Source: a virus (taxonomy: Duplodnaviria > Heunggongvirae > Uroviricota > Caudoviricetes). Taken from it: 4,008 nucleotides of DNA. The stretch lies in the IMG/VR virus record IMGVR_UViG_3300014784_000118; one strand, given 5' to 3'. The stretch's first letter is position 1. Every line of letters starts with the position of its first letter. The notes under the pieces are model-generated. The model was given only the letters and a program-made list of their open reading frames with translations, did no database searches and had not been told where the DNA came from. A program made the translations under genes and the position numbers. This document shows, piece by piece, positions 1 to 4,008 of the stretch.

Positions 1-49
1 GTGGAACACTCGCAGGGCTTCTAACCAACAACGTAAACTAGGAGCCGTT

Positions 50-250
50 ATGGTTGCCGTAAATCATATACCACACCTTGTACACACACAAACGGCCTTT
101 GTGTGGCGTTTTCTGGCACTGAGTGCCGGAGAATCCCAAATCATCCACGTAACCGCCTGGACGGAACGCGAAGCGCGTAGTCGTTGCCCGTCCGGTTGTG
201 TTGCTGTATTCGCTGCAAAAATCCGCCAGGGAGAAACCTATGCACAATAA
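50..250 (+). CDS. hypothetical protein (66 aa)
   Basis: ATG at 50 preceded by a strong Shine-Dalgarno AGGAG (41-45). Same strand as the neighbouring genes, and its end overlaps the next start by 11 nt. An upstream gene appears to end at TAA 22-24. No recognisable motifs. Confidence 0.4.
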   Translation: MVAVNHIPHLVHTQTAFVWRFLALSAGESQIIHVTAWTEREARSRCPSGCVAVFAAKIRQGETYAQ

Positions 251-470
251 AACCACACCGGACGCAGCAGAAGAAGCAATGCAAATACTGATACGTGCGC
301 TCGTTGATGTTACCCACATGGTGGAGATTATGGAGAGAAAATCACAGTCGGAGCACGACAAAAGAAAACTTAAAACAATAAAAATAATTGCCAAAAACTC
401 GCTGATAAAAGTTACAGACATCCTTAATGAGGACATTAAAAGAATAAGGGAGAAAATTTGTGATGCATAA
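240..470 (+). CDS. hypothetical small helical protein (76 aa), AT-rich gene
   Basis: ATG at 240 with SD AGGGAG (228-233). The ORF track start at 198 is a GTG with no RBS, so 240 is preferred. The protein is K/E-rich and looks helical. A sampled stretch (300-460) is about 34% GC, well below the rep gene. Confidence 0.5.
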   Translation: MHNKTTPDAAEEAMQILIRALVDVTHMVEIMERKSQSEHDKRKLKTIKIIAKNSLIKVTDILNEDIKRIREKICDA

Positions 471-690
471 AATCCCTTTTGAAGTATTAATCCACTCTGA
501 AAACGCATTAATTAAAGCACGCGAAATGAATGCGTTATTAATTAAATTAATTGAAGTGCCGGAAGGTGGCGAAGATCATTCATCATTAATGTTTGCCGCT
601 GTTCAGACATTATTGACACCTGTTATTGATGAACTCAATAAGGCTATGGCAATTCACGAGAATAATAAAGCGCCCCACACCGGAGAATAA
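463..690 (+). CDS. hypothetical small acidic protein (75 aa), AT-rich gene
   Basis: ATG at 463 (the track uses GTG at 460), with SD-like AGGGAG at 447-452. It overlaps the stop of the preceding gene (TAA 468-470). The protein is acidic and predicted helical, with an internal near-duplication NALIKA / NALLIKL. Confidence 0.5.
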   Translation: MHKIPFEVLIHSENALIKAREMNALLIKLIEVPEGGEDHSSLMFAAVQTLLTPVIDELNKAMAIHENNKAPHTGE

Positions 691-695
691 AAATA

Positions 696-995
696 ATGAA
701 ACTTAAATATTCTGGCTTAACTGCCAGTGGCAAAACTCGCACTAAATTCATGCGCGGTGATATTTACCGCGACCAGTACGGCGGCACGGTAATGATTAAG
801 GGCGTGGCGGGACGGTGCGTAACTTACCGCCGTGAAGGTTACGAATATGATTGCGTGATGCCTGTTTATCAGTTCCGGCGTGATTTTTCTCTGGTACAGA
901 CCGCGCCGCATAACGTGCCCACCAGCAACGCCAGGGCACGGGCAAACATCCAGAAGCTGAAAACCATGGTTAACGGATTCAGGGGCAAGAAATGA
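696..995 (+). CDS. hypothetical protein (99 aa), translationally coupled to rep
   Basis: ATG at 696 with SD GGAGA (682-686). Its stop TGA (993-995) overlaps the rep start ATG (992-994) as ATGA. The protein is basic with G/R/Y-rich segments; no family assignment is possible by eye. Confidence 0.55.
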   Translation: MKLKYSGLTASGKTRTKFMRGDIYRDQYGGTVMIKGVAGRCVTYRREGYEYDCVMPVYQFRRDFSLVQTAPHNVPTSNARARANIQKLKTMVNGFRGKK

Positions 996-2392
996 AAAGC
1001 GCACCGAACTTAAAAAAACAGCCTTACGACAAGATGACCGAAGTCATTATTTTTGCGGGTAGTGATGCCTGGGCACATGCGAAACAGTGGCAGGAACAGG
1101 ACGGGCGACTGGCTGGCGATAATGTGCCTCCCGTTGTGCTGGCTGATGATCAACTGGATGAACTGGCAGACCTGAGAATCATCGACGAGGGGCGCTATTG
1201 TGTCCGGCTGTACAAGGCAGGCCACATCAGGCCATCAAATATTAATGCCATTGCGCACAAGCTGGCGGCGGCGGGTGTAACTGATGCGAATTATTACCCC
1301 GAAGGGATGCACAGCCATATGCGGGAGAACTGGCGCGAATACCTGGAACGGGTGCGCGGGAAAGAGCCGGCGGAAGAAAAAAACCACCAGCGAAAAACCA
1401 CGCTACCGATGAGCGTTGGATCTACCGGATACGACACGCAACTGGATTACGTGGTTAAGGGGATTATTCCGGCGGTATCGCTATGCAGCATATACGGGGC
1501 TAGCGGGTCCTATAAATCATTCCTTGCCGGATCGTGGGCGTGCCATGTTGCCACTGGTCGCCAGTGGGGAGGCCGCAGGGTTGCACATGGTGCGGTTCTC
1601 TATGTGGTTGGTGAAGGCGGTATCGGCGTTCCGCGTCGTGTAAAAGCCTGGGAGGTTGTGCACGGTGAGCAGGTGAAAAATCTGTATCTGGTAAACCGTC
1701 CCATCTTTCCGGCTGTCCCGCTTGATGTTGATGAACTGGTTATTGCTGCCAGTCAGGTGGAGAGGGAAACGGGTAAACCTGTTCGCATGATTATTCTGGA
1801 CACGCTGGCGCGCTGCTTTGGCGGCAATGATGAAAATGACTCCCGCGACATGGGGGCGTTTATCCGTGGGTGTGACGAACTGAAACGACGCACAGGGGCC
1901 ACGGTGCTGGTGGTTCACCATTCCGGCAAGGATGAGACGAAAGGCGCGCGCGGTTCCAGTGCATTTCGTGCATCACTGGATGCTGAATACCGGATACGCA
2001 GGGAGGACGCAGGAAGCGAAGCGCTGGTTATCTCATGCACCAAAATGAAGGACGCGGAGGAACTCAAAGAAGCCGCATATGACTTACGCGTGGTGGAGCT
2101 TTTTACCGACGCTGACGGGGAGTTAATCACGTCGCTGGTGGTGGTGGATAAGCCGCGCCCTCCCGTTGAACTGGAGCGCATCGAGGAGGCAGGCAACAAG
2201 ACGGAAAACCATACCGCGCTATGGGGGTGCATACGTTCACGCACACAGCACGGCGACAAGTGCACGATCCCGCTGTTACGTGACGATATGAAAAAGCTGG
2301 GGTATGACACAAAACACCTTAAACGATGGTTAGCCAAACTGGAAAAAGACGACGTGATCTACATTGACGGTGATGATGTAGGACCACTGTAA
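992..2392 (+). CDS. replication initiator / RepA-like AAA-type (RecA-fold) ATPase-helicase, 466 aa
   Basis: Walker A GASGSYKS at nt 1496-1519 (aa 169-176). Walker B hydrophobic run plus Asp (RMIILDT, D270 at nt 1799-1801). HHSGK motif (aa 309-313), typical of RepA/DnaB-like AAA_25 helicases. The C-terminal about 60 aa is basic and helical, consistent with a winged-helix DNA-binding domain. An iteron array lies immediately 3' of the stop codon. The N-terminal about 140 aa has no motif I can recognise. Confidence 0.8.
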   Translation: MKSAPNLKKQPYDKMTEVIIFAGSDAWAHAKQWQEQDGRLAGDNVPPVVLADDQLDELADLRIIDEGRYCVRLYKAGHIRPSNINAIAHKLAAAGVTDANYYPEGMHSHMRENWREYLERVRGKEPAEEKNHQRKTTLPMSVGSTGYDTQLDYVVKGIIPAVSLCSIYGASGSYKSFLAGSWACHVATGRQWGGRRVAHGAVLYVVGEGGIGVPRRVKAWEVVHGEQVKNLYLVNRPIFPAVPLDVDELVIAASQVERETGKPVRMIILDTLARCFGGNDENDSRDMGAFIRGCDELKRRTGATVLVVHHSGKDETKGARGSSAFRASLDAEYRIRREDAGSEALVISCTKMKDAEELKEAAYDLRVVELFTDADGELITSLVVVDKPRPPVELERIEEAGNKTENHTALWGCIRSRTQHGDKCTIPLLRDDMKKLGYDTKHLKRWLAKLEKDDVIYIDGDDVGPL

Positions 2393-2591
2393 AAAGTGGG
2401 CATTAAAAGTGGGAAAGGTGGGAAATTTAACGTAATTTTAACAAAATTACCCACTTTCCCACGTGTATATATCCCAAAAAGTGGGCACTAAAAAAATACC
2501 TATGAAACAAGATGATATAAATCCCAAATTTCCCACGTTGGACGAAGTGGGAAAACGTAAAAAGTGGGCGAAAAAAGTGGGTAGAGGTGGG
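2393..2591. repeat. iteron array / putative origin of replication (ori)
   Basis: Direct repeats with an (A)nAGTGGG or AGGTGGG core: GTGGG at 2396-2400, 2409-2413, 2418-2422, 2481-2485, 2547-2551, 2564-2568, 2577-2581, 2587-2591. Inverted copies with a CCCAC core at 2450-2457, 2455-2463 and 2529-2537. AT-rich spacer 2423-2449 (aaatttaacgtaattttaacaaaatta), a possible unwinding element. An ATCCCAAA 8-mer is repeated at 2471-2478 and 2521-2528. The position right after rep matches the usual ori placement in PICIs and iteron plasmids. Confidence 0.7.
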
Positions 2592-2594
2592 CAA

Positions 2595-2846
2595 ATGACT
2601 CAAAAACACAGAGACAGAACAGAGCCAAAATATAAAGCGTTAGACATGACAGAGCACGCCTTAAAGGTGGCAATCAGAACGATAGACCGCCACGCGGGGG
2701 AAGGATACGCGAAGGAACATCCCGACCTGATAAGCGCATTCATGACCACGACGGCGGCAAATTTTGCCACGCTGACAGAGCGGGAGATTGCGGAAGCTGA
2801 ACAGGTGACAACCATCAACGTTAAAAACGTAGAGGTGGAATCATGA
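2595..2846 (+). CDS. hypothetical protein (83 aa)
   Basis: ATG at 2595 preceded by GAGGTGGG (2584-2591), which serves as SD and is also the last iteron copy. The stop TGA 2844-2846 overlaps the ssb start ATG 2843 (ATGA coupling). The in-frame upstream start at 2463 would translate the iterons and is rejected. Confidence 0.55.
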   Translation: MTQKHRDRTEPKYKALDMTEHALKVAIRTIDRHAGEGYAKEHPDLISAFMTTTAANFATLTEREIAEAEQVTTINVKNVEVES

Positions 2847-3265
2847 CAGCACAGATAGCGGCTTACGGGCGGCTGGTGGCTGACCCACAGTTAAAGACCA
2901 CCAGCAAGGGCACACAAATGACGATGGCGAGTATGGCTGTCCCCCTGCCGTGCAGCCAGGCAGATGACGGAACGGCTACGATGTGGTTATCCGTCCTGGC
3001 GTTTGGCAGACAGGCCGACGCACTGGCAAAACACCGCAAAGGCGAGCTGGTGAGCGTGGCGGGTAACATGCAGGTAAGCCAGTGGACAGGCCAGAACGGC
3101 GAAACGCGGCAGGGCTGGCAGGTTATCGCAGACAGCGTAATCAGTGCGAGAACGGCGCGACCGGGCGGCAAAAAAGGCCAGCAGGGGCAGGCTACTGACG
3201 CACTGAACAGGGCAAAACAACAGGCGGGGAATGATGATCCGTACGGGGATAACATACCGTTTTAA
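2843..3265 (+). CDS. ssb: single-stranded DNA-binding protein (SSB-like, OB-fold), 140 aa
   Basis: The N-terminal about 105 aa follows the SSB OB-fold pattern: (I/V)xxxGRLxxDPxL near the N-terminus, then WLSVLAFGRQAD...KGELVSVAGNMQVSQWTGQNGETRQGWQVIADSV, paralleling E. coli SSB WHRVVLFGKLAE...KGSQVYIEGQLRTRKW. A Gly/Gln-rich linker follows, and the C-terminal tip ...DDPYGDNIPF resembles the canonical SSB DDDIPF tail. SD GAGGTGG lies upstream. Confidence 0.8.
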   Translation: MTAQIAAYGRLVADPQLKTTSKGTQMTMASMAVPLPCSQADDGTATMWLSVLAFGRQADALAKHRKGELVSVAGNMQVSQWTGQNGETRQGWQVIADSVISARTARPGGKKGQQGQATDALNRAKQQAGNDDPYGDNIPF

Positions 3266-3280
3266 GCAACGAGTGACAGA

Positions 3281-3303
3281 AGCCGGAGAAATCCGGCTTT
3301 TTT
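3281..3303 (+). terminator. rho-independent terminator after ssb
   Basis: Perfect 7-bp stem AGCCGGA (3281-3287) / TCCGGCT (3292-3298) with a GAAA tetraloop, followed by a T-run (3298-3303), 16 nt after the ssb stop codon. Confidence 0.65.
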
Positions 3304-3507
3304 GTAGGTACTCCTGGTGGGGGTGGCCTGTCCACGGGGCGGAGGGGCGCGGAAAAAGGCGCATTTTTTGATTTTTATGGCACCATCACCACCACTATAA
3401 GTTATTGATATGTTGAGAAATAAAAATTTTTAGTGTCGAATCAGGTTGTTTTTTGTTCATCACCGGAACGTTCCCGAAAACATTTACAAAAAACAGGCGC
3501 AAAAAAA

Positions 3508-3540
3508 GCGCCCCCGATTGCTGTTACCGGAGGCGCTTTT
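3508..3540. terminator. hairpin with flanking A/T runs (possible bidirectional terminator or regulatory hairpin)
   Basis: Stem GCGCCCCC (3508-3515) / GGAGGCGC (3529-3536), 7 of 8 pairs, with a 13-nt loop. It is followed by TTTT on the + strand and preceded by A7 (3501-3507), which gives T7 on the - strand. No minus-strand gene is evident downstream to use it. Confidence 0.3.
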
Positions 3541-3638
3541 ACACGACAAAGGAGTTTTTATCGCCAGGATGACGAGTCTTAATACTGCTTCAATGGCAAA
3601 AATGCGTCAATAACTTTGCCTCTCTGAGAATAATCAGA

Positions 3639-3657
3639 AAAATCATAATCTGATTTT
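3639..3657. promoter_or_regulatory. operator-like inverted repeat upstream of the 3732 gene
   Basis: AAAATCA (3639-3645) - N5 - TGATTTT (3651-3657). It overlaps a -10-like CATAAT (3644-3649) and sits about 75 bp upstream of the ATG at 3732. Confidence 0.25.
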
Positions 3658-3731
3658 CAGGTAGAAAATGATTTATCTATTACTTTTATCGATCAATAAT
3701 GATGCCCGTTAATCAAAACGGAGGCGGATTT

Positions 3732-3926
3732 ATGCCAGAGAACAACACCAGAAAGCCGGATAAAAGTGCCACGGTACACATAGACGCCGGAACTATGGAG
3801 AAGATCGAACGCTATCAGCAGTTCATCAAAGATAATCACCCGGGTATGCCAGTACCCACGAAAGGACAAATCACACGCAGCGCGGTTGAATACTGGTACA
3901 GGGCAACGTTAGGGGTCTGGCTATGA
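3732..3926 (+). CDS. hypothetical small protein (64 aa), possible ribbon-helix-helix DNA-binding protein
   Basis: ATG at 3732 with a strong SD GGAGG (3720-3724, 7-nt spacing). The ATG at 3699 on the ORF track lacks an RBS. The pattern short beta-strand (ATVHID), helix (GTMEKIERYQQFIKDN), loop, helix (ITRSAVEYWYRA) suggests an RHH fold. Its stop overlaps the next start (ATGA at 3923-3926). Confidence 0.5.
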   Translation: MPENNTRKPDKSATVHIDAGTMEKIERYQQFIKDNHPGMPVPTKGQITRSAVEYWYRATLGVWL

Positions 3927-4008
3927 AAACATGGTTTTCCATTAAGGCTATGGCAGATGTTGTCTATGTGCGCATTTATGACGAGATCGGCGGGTACGGT
4001 GTAAAAGC
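3923..4008 (+). CDS. partial CDS (N-terminus only, runs off the window end); possible ClpP/S14-family prohead (head maturation) protease
   Basis: ATG at 3923 with SD AGGGG (3911-3915), translationally coupled to the upstream gene. The N-terminus MKTWFSIKAMADVVYVRIYDEIGGYGV contains the (I/L)YDEIG...GV motif characteristic of the start of ClpP-like phage prohead proteases. Only 28 codons are visible, so the family call is tentative. Confidence 0.4.
   Translation, partial: MKTWFSIKAMADVVYVRIYDEIGGYGVK

What the first reader, a model, noticed from the sequence alone, without database searches (positions are those of the whole stretch)
240..690. AT-rich overlapping two-gene cassette inside a GC-richer replication operon: candidate accessory module
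Genes 240-470 and 463-690 are much lower in GC than rep, ssb and the flanking genes (about 34% in a sampled stretch, against roughly 55% by eye). They encode small helical proteins, one lysine-rich and one acidic, with overlapping stop and start. This compositional island looks like horizontally acquired cargo (a moron) inserted in the replication module. Small paired genes of this kind in satellites and prophages often turn out to be toxin-antitoxin, anti-defence or helper-interference functions. Nothing in the sequence identifies which; this is the most likely location in the window for an undescribed function.
Basis: partly seen in the sequence, partly recalled or inferred. Interest (0 to 1): 0.5.

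Follow-up and report, generated by a model that had tools for sequence, protein, structure and literature searches.

The report
Rare AT-rich small-gene pair in PICI
The two small AT-rich genes are real, but they are not a foreign insert: they are a rare, compact version of two uncharacterised small-protein families found at this same spot in most related E. coli phage-satellite islands, and their function is still unknown.

Summary
Genes 240-470 (A, 76 aa) and 463-690 (B, 75 aa) overlap by 8 nt. They are 37-38% GC against 51-59% for the neighbouring genes, and both are predicted alpha-helical hairpins.

The window is the icd-like / rgdR (DUF4222) / pri-rep / ori / ssb operon of an E. coli phage-inducible chromosomal island (PICI). 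A and B are not an insertion. Homologues of both families occupy the same slot in 63 of 66 rgdR-anchored relatives and 54 of 73 rep-anchored ones, usually with a third gene between them.

The window carries a rare allele, 5 of 75 distinct versions. It shares 25-39% (A) and about 22-57% (B) identity with the other classes. It replaces the usual ~615-bp segment between conserved flanks, with breakpoints near 270/271 and 664/665.

The same allele travels with two unrelated Pri-Rep cores. Close relatives with 95-97% identical Rep lack A and B. B occurs without A. No match was found in Pfam, NCBIfam, the anti-phage-defence HMM library PADLOC or the PDB, and there is no promoter or terminator of its own. 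B is under purifying selection (dN/dS 0.20).

This argues against a toxin-antitoxin pair, a classical moron or a Rep-specific accessory. The most likely role, by inference only, is small protein-binding modulators of the induction phase. Modest interest.

The parts
50..250 (+). icd-like gene (66 aa), first gene of the operon seen in the window. It overlaps the start of A by 11 nt.
   Evidence: NCBIfam NF033153 phage_ICD_like, E 1.2e-17. PHROG phrog_29966 and phrog_1743. Annotated 'host cell division inhibitor Icd-like' in relatives.
240..470 (+). Gene A (76 aa): a rare, deeply divergent, AT-rich allele of a PICI-specific small-protein family, predicted to be an alpha-hairpin.
   Evidence: ORF with AGGGAG at 228-233. 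Weak full-length match to phrog_5146, E 4.8e-6. A family profile finds 758 clusters at 90% identity; all 120 listed hits with a source name are E. coli. Residues 1-25 are conserved across alleles and the rest diverges. AlphaFold2 gives helices 9-34 and 38-75, pLDDT 84. The exact protein is indexed in 2649 blocks of public assemblies.
463..690 (+). Gene B (75 aa): a member of a minor clade of a second PICI-specific small-protein family, predicted to be an alpha-hairpin, acidic.
   Evidence: Full-length match to phrog_2196, E 3.6e-10. Homologues at 51-97% identity in E. coli, Shigella and E. albertii, and 779 clusters with the family profile. AlphaFold2 gives helices 6-31 and 39-69, pLDDT 82. 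dN/dS is 0.20 within the window-type clade. B lies within 40 bp upstream of DUF4222 in 65/66 loci.
271..664 (.). The replaced (recombinant) segment: the part of A plus B that has no DNA similarity to the common alleles. It is the true compositional island (35.5% GC).
   Evidence: blastn against L106 and L084 holds at 92-99% up to window 268-270 and resumes at 665. The corresponding segment in those relatives is about 615 bp at 44-45% GC.
463..470 (+). ATGCATAA: B's start codon overlaps A's stop codon, the layout of translational coupling.
   Evidence: Read from the sequence. The same junction layout is annotated in relatives.
679..690 (+). Last four codons of B (His-Thr-Gly-Glu, stop). They contain GGAG (682-685), which is the likely Shine-Dalgarno sequence of the DUF4222 gene that starts at 696.
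   Evidence: Read from the sequence. The C-terminal HTGE is retained across B alleles that are otherwise about 30-38% identical. DNA similarity to relatives resumes at 665.
696..995 (+). DUF4222 gene, a homologue of RgdR. It carries the RGD tripeptide at residues 20-22.
   Evidence: Pfam PF13973, E 3.3e-23. RgdR is described as a DUF4222 protein with an RGD motif encoded in O-island 51 (PMC10877973), and as encoded by all analysed E. coli PICIs (PMC6092414).
992..2392 (+). Pri-Rep of the RepA-helicase (AAA_25) type, with a separate N-terminal domain of about 122 aa.
   Evidence: Pfam PF13481, E 4.9e-44, and phrog_2850. The N-terminal 122 residues are 61% identical to the N-terminus of a D5_N/DUF5906 Pri-Rep that follows the same A-B-DUF4222 trio in L163.
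2393..2594 (.). Replication origin: at least nine AAGTGGG-type iterons in both orientations around an AT-rich core.
   Evidence: the repeat finder. The layout matches the Gram-negative PICI origins described in PMC6092414.

Best explanation
SHOWN. The window is the early/replication operon of an E. coli phage-inducible chromosomal island (PICI). Its order is icd-like, A, B, rgdR (DUF4222), pri-rep, iteron origin, a small gene, ssb.

A and B are the local representatives of two small-protein families specific to PICIs and satellite-like elements. In most related islands these families sit in exactly this slot, usually as A-M-B with a third gene M between them, or with A fused to M.

The window carries a rare, compact, AT-rich allele that lacks M. 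It replaces the usual ~615-bp segment between two conserved flanks: the first ~10 codons of A, and the last ~8 codons of B, which hold the ribosome-binding site of rgdR. That is the signature of homologous recombination between islands, not of an insertion.

Both proteins are soluble two-helix hairpins. The genes have no promoter of their own and are laid out for translational coupling within the operon. B is under purifying selection.

INFERRED. The genes are transcribed with the operon once the island is induced. In Gram-negative PICIs the activator of induction is AlpA. Each hairpin probably pairs into a four-helix bundle and acts as a small protein-binding modulator of a host or helper-phage factor during induction. 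They are not a cognate toxin-antitoxin pair and not a partner matched to one Rep type. The target is unknown.
For: Identity of the element:
- DUF4222, AAA_25 and SSB domains; icd-like; iterons.
- Relatives carry an integrase and an AlpA-family gene at one end and a capsid module at the other, about 10 kb in all, inserted in tqsA and other sites.
- PICI literature.

Family conservation in place:
- A..B in 54/73 rep-anchored loci.
- A..B in 63/66 DUF4222-anchored loci, with B within 40 bp of DUF4222 in 65/66.
- A B-like gene sits directly upstream of the primase in the satellite-like Klebsiella element vB_KppS-Ant.

Rare allele and replacement:
- 5 of 75 distinct A..B segments are window-type (456 bp against 675-1040 bp). 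At 50% identity A splits 70 against 5, and B 63 against 12.
- Breakpoints lie near 270/271 and 664/665.

Independence from neighbours:
- The identical A, with B and DUF4222, occurs with AAA_25 or D5_N/DUF5906 Pri-Rep, with two capsid modules and several integrases.
- Rep at 99% identity accompanies B at 38% identity or no detectable window-type B (L083, L084). icd at 100% identity accompanies A at 39% (L106).

Real genes:
- dN/dS of B is 0.20.
- The exact A protein is indexed in 2649 blocks of public assemblies.

Fold: AlphaFold2 hairpins with pLDDT 82-84.

Restricted to PICIs and satellite-like elements:
- The major A and B alleles are absent from 50,697 phage records. Window A is also absent. 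Window B hits only vB_KppS-Ant.
- Only 28 clusters match the B profile among 1.84 billion representative proteins.
Against: - The functional part is inference only. There is no informative match in Pfam, NCBIfam, PADLOC, PDB sequences or Foldseek.
- No experiment on these genes was found. Only genes after the origin were screened for phage interference in EcCICFT073.
- Dimerisation and protein binding are guesses from a generic fold.
- 'Core' is too strong. 8 of 73 rep-anchored relatives lack both families, including L087, L108 and L109 with Rep 95-97% identical to the window's and a different small gene in the slot.
- The samples are IMG/VR contigs and are not phylogenetically independent, so the fractions are descriptive.
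- AlpA-dependent co-transcription is taken from work on other PICIs. The promoter lies outside the window.
Confidence: 0.6

Rival explanations
1. Horizontally acquired cargo (a moron) inserted in the replication module, encoding a toxin-antitoxin pair or another self-contained accessory system.
For: - Strong GC and GC3 deficit.
- Small, paired, overlapping genes.
- Variable presence: the full cassette is in 43 of 5426 complete E. coli genomes, against 1836 genomes that match some part of the window.
- Complementary charge, with A basic and B acidic.
Against: - Homologues of both families occupy the same slot in most relatives.
- The window's version is shorter than the alternatives, so it is a replacement and not an insertion.
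- There is no + strand promoter-like site in 1-1100, and only weak terminator-like hairpins at the chance level.
- No match in PADLOC, Pfam or NCBIfam.
- B occurs alone, directly after icd (L158), and window-clade B pairs with other A classes. A and B are therefore not an obligate cognate pair.
- The common A allele is acidic, so the charge complementarity is not a family trait.
Confidence: 0.08
2. Replication accessory proteins that act with Pri-Rep or the origin, such as a helicase-loading adaptor or a copy-number modulator. The analogy is to P4 Cnr, which acts on the alpha initiator, or to the ColE1 Rop hairpin dimer (both recalled from general knowledge).
For: - Position immediately upstream of rgdR and pri-rep in the same operon.
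- A B-like gene sits directly upstream of the primase in vB_KppS-Ant.
- The Pri-Rep N-terminal domain of ~122 aa travels with the upstream module across two Rep core types and could be a common docking surface.
- Rop appears among the generic hairpin matches (E 2.1, not significant).
Against: - The same A/B allele serves two unrelated Rep cores.
- Nearly identical Rep, origin region and SSB occur with a 38%-identical B or with no A or B at all (L083, L084, L087, L108, L109).
- Pairwise identity of A does not track the adjacent DUF4222 gene (correlation 0.00), and B tracks it only modestly (0.39), as expected from physical adjacency.
- In EcCICFT073 a cloned pri-ori segment with arabinose-driven rep was maintained as a plasmid (PMC6092414).
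Confidence: 0.15
3. Arms-race factors aimed at variable partners: determinants of which helper phages are exploited or blocked, or inhibitors of host defence systems. The allele classes would be maintained by balancing selection.
For: - A few deeply divergent allele classes (25-40% identity) sit between flanks that are 90-99% identical and are shuffled independently of neighbours.
- The genes are small, restricted to PICIs and satellite-like elements, early and AT-rich.
- Purifying selection acts within a class.
- Surface-variable hairpins keep a conserved hydrophobic core.
Against: - There is no homology to any known interference, anti-defence or defence protein.
- Known Gram-negative PICI interference genes lie after the origin, not here (PMC6739421).
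- The number of classes is small: 4-5 at 70% identity, similar to DUF4222 itself.
- The operon is expected to be silent until a helper induces the island, which fits poorly with a role at DNA entry.
Confidence: 0.15
4. Not functional genes: chance ORFs in an AT-rich spacer, or decaying remnants.
For: No domain or fold assignment. AT-rich DNA yields few stop-free frames, but here a 156-aa ORF also runs on the opposite strand at 38-508.
Against: - dN/dS of B is 0.20.
- Ribosome-binding sites and coupled stop/start.
- Confident helical models.
- Family-wide conservation of core residues across 30-40% identical alleles.
- The exact A protein is indexed in 2649 blocks of public assemblies.
Confidence: 0.02

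Closest known systems
Gram-negative (E. coli) phage-inducible chromosomal islands such as EcCICFT073 and O-island 51 / CP-933C (Fillol-Salom et al. 2018, PMC6092414; Flockhart et al. 2012, PMC3378721)
   Same: The rgdR (DUF4222) gene upstream of pri-rep, and an iteron origin with an AT-rich core just after rep. Relatives have an integrase and an AlpA-family gene at the left end, a size of about 10-15 kb, and small 'hypothetical' genes between the regulator and pri-rep.
   Different: The published work did not name or test the small genes before rgdR. This window's Pri-Rep is the RepA/AAA_25 type, and its closest relatives carry a ClpP-protease/capsid fusion gene rather than the Rpp/cos system studied in EcCICFT073.
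PHROG families phrog_5146 (A) and phrog_2196 (B), both 'unknown function'
   Same: Full-length matches: A residues 1-70 to profile positions 1-72 of 74, E 4.8e-6; B residues 1-69 to 1-71 of 74, E 3.6e-10.
   Different: The matches are weak because the window carries divergent alleles. The families have no annotated function. Neither window A nor the common A and B alleles are found in 50,697 GenBank phage records, and window B hits only the satellite-like vB_KppS-Ant. The PHROG members are therefore probably satellites or prophage-like entries; this is an inference.
Phage morons (genes with their own promoter and terminator inserted between core genes)
   Same: Compositional contrast with the neighbours, and small size.
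   Different: No promoter or terminator of its own. The slot is occupied by homologous genes in relatives, and the window's version is a shorter replacement.
Type II toxin-antitoxin pairs
   Same: Two small overlapping genes, one basic product and one acidic.
   Different: No toxin or antitoxin domain. There is no obligate pairing, since B occurs alone or with other A classes. No autoregulated promoter is evident.
Small alpha-hairpin regulators such as ColE1 Rop/Rom, or immunity proteins such as Tsi2
   Same: About 65-75 residues forming a two-helix hairpin that could pair into a four-helix bundle.
   Different: Only generic, non-significant structural similarity (best Foldseek E 0.1-0.5; none at or below 0.001) and no sequence similarity.

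Membership tests
Gram-negative PICI (E. coli type) | pri-rep gene followed by an origin made of two iteron sets flanking an AT-rich region | tested here: met
   AAA_25 Rep at 992-2392. At least nine AAGTGGG iterons in both orientations at 2393-2594 around an AT-rich core.
Gram-negative PICI (E. coli type) | rgdR (DUF4222) gene, reported in all analysed E. coli PICIs | tested here: met
   PF13973, E 3.3e-23, with the RGD tripeptide at residues 20-22. Literature.
Gram-negative PICI (E. coli type) | Integrase at one end, an AlpA-family regulator, a size of about 10-15 kb, and a specific att site | tested here: met
   These lie outside the window and were seen in close relatives. L001 is about 10.4 kb, inserted in tqsA, with an integrase and an HTH regulator. 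L163, L164 and L166 have PF00589 and PF05930 genes.
Gram-negative PICI (E. coli type) | Induction, replication and packaging dependent on a helper phage | not testable with these tools
   Needs experiments.
Type II toxin-antitoxin module | Recognisable toxin and/or antitoxin domain | tested here: not met
   No hits for A or B in Pfam, NCBIfam or PADLOC at E up to 1. No significant match in PDB sequences or folds.
Type II toxin-antitoxin module | The two genes are inherited as an obligate cognate pair | tested here: not met
   B occurs alone after icd in S22EC and L158. Window-clade B occurs with major-class A plus a third gene in L123, L128, L129 and L159. The correlation of A and B pairwise identities is only 0.23.
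Type II toxin-antitoxin module | Toxicity of one product rescued by the other | not testable with these tools
   Needs expression experiments.
Moron | Own promoter and terminator bracketing the gene(s) | tested here: not met
   In 1-1100 there are 2 promoter-like sites, both on the - strand, against 2.0 expected. There are 3 terminator-like sites (two on the + strand, one inside B at 519-535) against 1.3 expected. This is a consensus scan only.
Moron | Present as an insertion relative to otherwise collinear relatives | tested here: not met
   Relatives hold a longer homologous array in the same slot. The segment 271-664 replaces about 615 bp.
Rep-specific replication accessory protein (works like P4 Cnr) | Co-inheritance or co-variation with its cognate initiator | tested here: not met
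   The same allele occurs with AAA_25 and with D5_N/DUF5906 cores. Rep at 95-99% identity occurs with a different B or with no A or B.
PHROG phrog_2196 (B) and phrog_5146 (A) | Significant full-length profile match | tested here: met
   B E 3.6e-10; A E 4.8e-6, which is weak. Both cover nearly the whole profile.
Known anti-defence proteins | Homology to a described anti-restriction, anti-CRISPR or similar family | tested here: inconclusive
   Pfam and PHROGs give nothing, but no dedicated anti-defence library was available.

The most novel reading that the evidence does not exclude
A and B (with the third gene M in other islands) form a recombining specificity cassette of E. coli PICIs. Their few deeply divergent allele classes would bind different helper-phage or host proteins, and so set which helpers an island can exploit or block, or which hosts it can establish in. 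The AT-rich window allele would then be a distinct specificity type imported from a lower-GC branch of the satellite gene pool.
Probability: 0.15. Interest if true: 0.6.

Novelty: new member of a known kind. Interest (0 to 1): 0.3.

Why it matters
The small genes between the regulator and pri-rep of Gram-negative PICIs have not been studied, as far as the searchable literature shows. Published interference screens covered only genes after the origin.

This analysis gives a concrete handle on that slot. It holds two (or three) small-protein families restricted to PICIs and satellite-like elements. They fall into a few deep allele classes that recombine independently of Rep type, capsid module and integration site.

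If these proteins turn out to modulate helper or host factors, allele swaps would be a simple way to test what sets satellite-helper compatibility. As it stands, this is a tidy re-description of two hypothetical genes in a known kind of element, not a new system.

Tried and rejected
- **Family libraries.** Pfam, NCBIfam and PADLOC gave nothing for A or B. PHROGs gave only 'unknown function' families.
- **Solved structures by sequence.** Profiles of both families against PDB sequences gave only chance-level coiled-coil matches (best E 0.0064 to DesK helices for A, 0.17 for B).
- **Fold searches.** Foldseek of both models against the PDB, and of B against viral models, gave no match at E <= 0.001, only generic hairpins.
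- **A and B as paralogues.** hhalign probability was 0.9%. Rejected.
- **Window A's second helix derived from the middle gene M.** hmmsearch and hhalign gave no signal. Rejected.
- **A and B near rep homologues in other genera.** 80 loci (Xenorhabdus, Pectobacterium, Citrobacter and others) gave no hit by tblastn or profile. The distant B-family members in Yersinia, Salmonella, Erwinia, Pectobacterium and Enterobacter lie elsewhere, and their context could not be looked up.
- **Phage records.** tblastn found no window A and neither major allele. Window B hit only the satellite-like vB_KppS-Ant.
- **RNA and signals.** The Rfam scan found nothing at gathering score, and nothing at all in the cassette. 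The promoter/terminator scan was at chance level.
- **Source of the window.** No exact source was found. The closest overall is L168 (94-96.5% identity), and the A..B segment is identical to L164.
- **Complex prediction.** A prediction for A+B could not be run, because only single-chain jobs were available and both were used.
Full report
**1. What is in the sequence**

The window holds a run of same-strand genes:

| Coordinates | Gene |
|---|---|
| 50-250 | icd-like |
| 240-470 | A |
| 463-690 | B |
| 696-995 | DUF4222 |
| 992-2392 | AAA_25 Rep |
| 2393-2594 | iteron-rich gap |
| ends 2846 | small gene D |
| 2843-3265 | ssb |
| 3699-3926 | small gene E |
| from 3923 | start of a protease/capsid gene |

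A's stop and B's start overlap in ATGCATAA, and both starts have an AGGGAG upstream.

GC is 37.7% for A and 36.8% for B, against 51-59% for the other genes. Third-codon-position GC is 40% and 32%, against 58% in rep, so amino-acid composition alone does not explain the bias. The five lowest 394-bp windows of the whole window all fall inside the cassette (minimum 33.8%). No coding window elsewhere is below 53.3%.

A is mildly basic (pI 8.8, 13% Lys) and B is acidic (pI 5.4). AlphaFold2 with family alignments predicts a two-helix hairpin for each (pLDDT 84 and 82).

**2. What the element is**

The DUF4222, AAA_25 and SSB domains, the icd-like model and the AAGTGGG iterons around an AT-rich core just after rep match the layout described for Gram-negative PICIs. 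That paper states that RgdR is encoded by all analysed E. coli PICIs and that such islands correspond to O-island 51 (PMC6092414). RgdR is a DUF4222 protein with an RGD motif (PMC10877973). The window's protein has RGD at residues 20-22.

Close relatives in complete genomes are islands of about 10 kb with an integrase and an HTH/AlpA-family gene on the left and a capsid module on the right, inserted in tqsA and other sites. Parts of the window match 1836 of 5426 complete E. coli genomes. No complete genome holds the whole window at high identity (best place: 90% of the query covered at 94% identity).

**3. The cassette is a slot, and the slot is usually occupied by the same families**

I fetched 80 IMG/VR loci with Rep 64-99% identical to the window's, and 80 loci from other genera.

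- In 73 loci with both icd-like and DUF4222, the interval between them is 199-1350 bp. Its GC is always below that of rep (37-49% against 52-56%). The window's interval is 449 bp at 37.1% GC. It is shorter than all but four of the intervals and has the lowest GC.
- Profiles iterated from A and from B detect A-like genes in 64 of the 73 loci and B-like genes in 55, in the order A..B in 54.
- In most loci a third gene (M, about 78 aa) lies between A and B, or A is fused to M in a protein of 150-155 aa.
- Anchoring instead on DUF4222 (at least 86% identical) gave 66 usable loci: 63 with A..B, 2 with B only, 1 with neither. B ends within 40 bp of DUF4222 in 65 of them, with either of two Rep types downstream.
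- Family profiles find 758 (A) and 779 (B) clusters at 90% identity. In both searches every listed hit that carries a source name is from Escherichia or Shigella, annotated 'hypothetical' or 'prophage protein', with no Pfam domain.
- An exhaustive profile search for B over 1.84 billion representative proteins found only 28 clusters. The distant ones come from Yersinia, Enterobacter/Citrobacter, Erwinia, Salmonella and Pectobacterium.
- In the satellite-like 16.5-kb 'phage' vB_KppS-Ant, a 36%-identical B sits directly upstream of the primase.
- Window A is absent from 50,697 phage records, and so are the common A and B alleles.

**4. What is special about the window's copy**

Against relatives whose flanks are 92-99% identical (L106, L084), DNA similarity stops at window 268-270 and resumes at 665. 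The replaced segment, 271-664, is 35.5% GC. The corresponding segment in those relatives is about 615 bp at 44-45% GC.

The left flank includes the first ~10 codons of A. Beyond that point the A proteins stay recognisably similar up to about residue 25. The right flank includes B's last codons, His-Thr-Gly-Glu. Their GGAG (682-685) is the likely ribosome-binding site of rgdR, which explains why HTGE survives in otherwise 30-38% identical B alleles.

Among 75 distinct A..B segments, 5 are window-type (456 bp, no M). The rest are about 675-700 bp or about 1040 bp.

- At 50% identity, A splits into two classes of 70 and 5. Window A is 25-39% identical to the major class.
- At 50% identity, B splits 63 and 12. 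Window B is about 55-57% identical to the other members of its own clade that were sampled, and about 22-41% identical to the rest.
- All B alleles are AT-rich, 38-47% GC and mostly about 40%. Other A alleles are 45-54%, so only A's low GC is allele-specific.

The window therefore carries a rare allele that arrived by recombination between conserved flanks. It is a replacement that is shorter than what it replaced.

**5. Tests that bear on function**

- **(a) Coding.** Within the window-type clade B has dN/dS 0.20, comparable to icd-like (0.27) and DUF4222 (0.36). The exact A protein is indexed in 2649 blocks of public assemblies.
- **(b) Linkage to Rep.** The identical A, with B and DUF4222, precedes an AAA_25 Rep in L168 and a D5_N/DUF5906 primase in L163-L167. 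These islands have different integrases, att sites and capsid modules. Conversely, L083 and L084 have Rep 99% identical to the window's, yet L083 carries a 38%-identical B and L084 a major-class B that tblastn with window B did not detect. L087, L108 and L109 (Rep 95-97%) have neither A nor B, but a different small gene. A function matched to one Rep type, or required for this replicon, is therefore unlikely.
- **(c) Pairing.** B occurs alone right after icd (S22EC; L158). Window-clade B also occurs with major-class A plus M. Pairwise identities of A and B correlate only weakly (0.23). This argues against a cognate toxin-antitoxin pair.
- **(d) Signals.** There is no promoter-like site on the + strand, terminator-like sites are at the chance level, and there is no Rfam match in the cassette.
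- **(e) Homology.** Nothing was found in Pfam, NCBIfam or PADLOC, in PDB sequences or by Foldseek. A and B are not detectably related to each other or to M.
- **(f) Literature.** The screen for EcCICFT073 interference genes covered only genes after the origin (PMC6739421). The rgdR study mapped its effect to the region between z1841 and z1842 and did not address the upstream genes (PMC3378721). I found no experimental data on A or B.

**6. Most likely account**

Shown:
- A and B are genuine, translationally coupled genes of the PICI operon.
- They are members of two small-protein families, restricted to PICIs and satellite-like elements, that occupy this slot in most related islands.
- The window has a rare, compact, AT-rich allele placed by homologous recombination.
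- They are independent of Rep type, capsid module and integration site.

Inferred:
- They are expressed when the island is induced. AlpA-dependent transcription is established for other Gram-negative PICIs. The promoter lies outside the window.
- They act as small, probably dimeric, protein-binding modulators of a host or helper factor.

I put about 0.85 on the anatomical and evolutionary part and about 0.3 on the functional part.

Rivals, in order:
1. A generic replication accessory.
2. Arms-race or helper-specificity factors.
3. Acquired cargo or a toxin-antitoxin pair.
4. Non-genes.

**7. Comparison and novelty**

The element is a member of the known E. coli PICI kind. The defining features that can be tested are met. 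The cassette fails the tested defining features of a moron, a toxin-antitoxin module and a Rep-matched accessory.

It is best filed as a new (rare) member of two uncharacterised PICI gene families. The families themselves remain an open, modestly interesting question. A specialist would not be surprised by AT-rich hypothetical genes in a satellite. The mosaic allele structure, however, offers a practical experiment: allele swaps.

**8. Limits**

- The locus samples are not de-replicated by phylogeny, so the fractions are descriptive.
- Gene starts in relatives were inferred from profile alignments.
- The promoter and terminator scans use consensus patterns only.
- No complex prediction and no experiment was possible.

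Noticed in passing
window 2393-2594 (and gene D, 2502-2846): At least nine AAGTGGG-type iterons in both orientations around an AT-rich core form the likely origin. The long ORF D (from 2502) runs through them. RefSeq relatives and phrog_1231 support a shorter gene of about 83 aa starting near 2595.
   Followed up: partly
window 992-1357; L163 10753-11127: The first ~122 residues of Pri-Rep are 61% identical to the N-terminus of a D5_N/DUF5906 primase that follows the same A-B-DUF4222 trio. The rest of the two proteins is unrelated. An N-terminal domain is therefore shared between two Rep core types and travels with the upstream module. In other genera the Rep homologues match only from about residue 104-135 onward.
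   Followed up: partly
window 3923-4008; L168 13695-15584; L001 12850-14739: The window ends in the start of a 629-aa ClpP-like protease / major-capsid fusion gene. In the closest relatives this is the only recognisable morphogenesis gene of a ~10-kb island, with no portal or terminase. That differs both from classical cos-type PICIs and from capsid-forming PICIs with a nine-gene packaging module. Other islands with the same A-B allele instead carry gpE-like capsid, gpD-like (HDPD) and Nu1-like genes.
   Followed up: no
L097 3009-3470, L160 2867-3328 and other loci: In many relatives A is fused in frame to the middle gene M (proteins of 150-155 aa), while in others the two are separate genes. 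One E. coli protein (P0364) joins the first 8 residues of an A allele to a B-family body. The slot is prone to fusions and deletions.
   Followed up: partly
L087 661-1411: A relative with Rep 97% identical to the window's has a duplicated icd-like ORF of 187 aa. In place of A and B it has a single 66-aa gene of a different family, with no detectable similarity to A or B, which also occurs upstream of A in longer slots.
   Followed up: partly
window 50-250: The gene annotated 'host cell division inhibitor Icd-like' also matches PHROG families labelled 'transcriptional repressor' (phrog_1743, phrog_6196). Its role in PICIs appears untested. In vB_KppS-Ant an icd-like domain forms the C-terminus of a 324-aa protein.
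   Followed up: no
window 3281-3306 and 3303-3698: A GC-rich hairpin (AGCCGG..CCGGCT) followed by a T run lies just after ssb. By eye it looks like an intrinsic terminator, but the scan tool did not list it. Then comes a ~400-bp AT-rich intergenic region with only sub-threshold Rfam matches (ctRNA_p42d, 23 bits against a gathering score of 50).
   Followed up: no
window 38-508, - strand: A 156-aa ORF runs antisense across icd-like and A. It is not annotated in any relative examined and is probably a by-product of composition.
   Followed up: no
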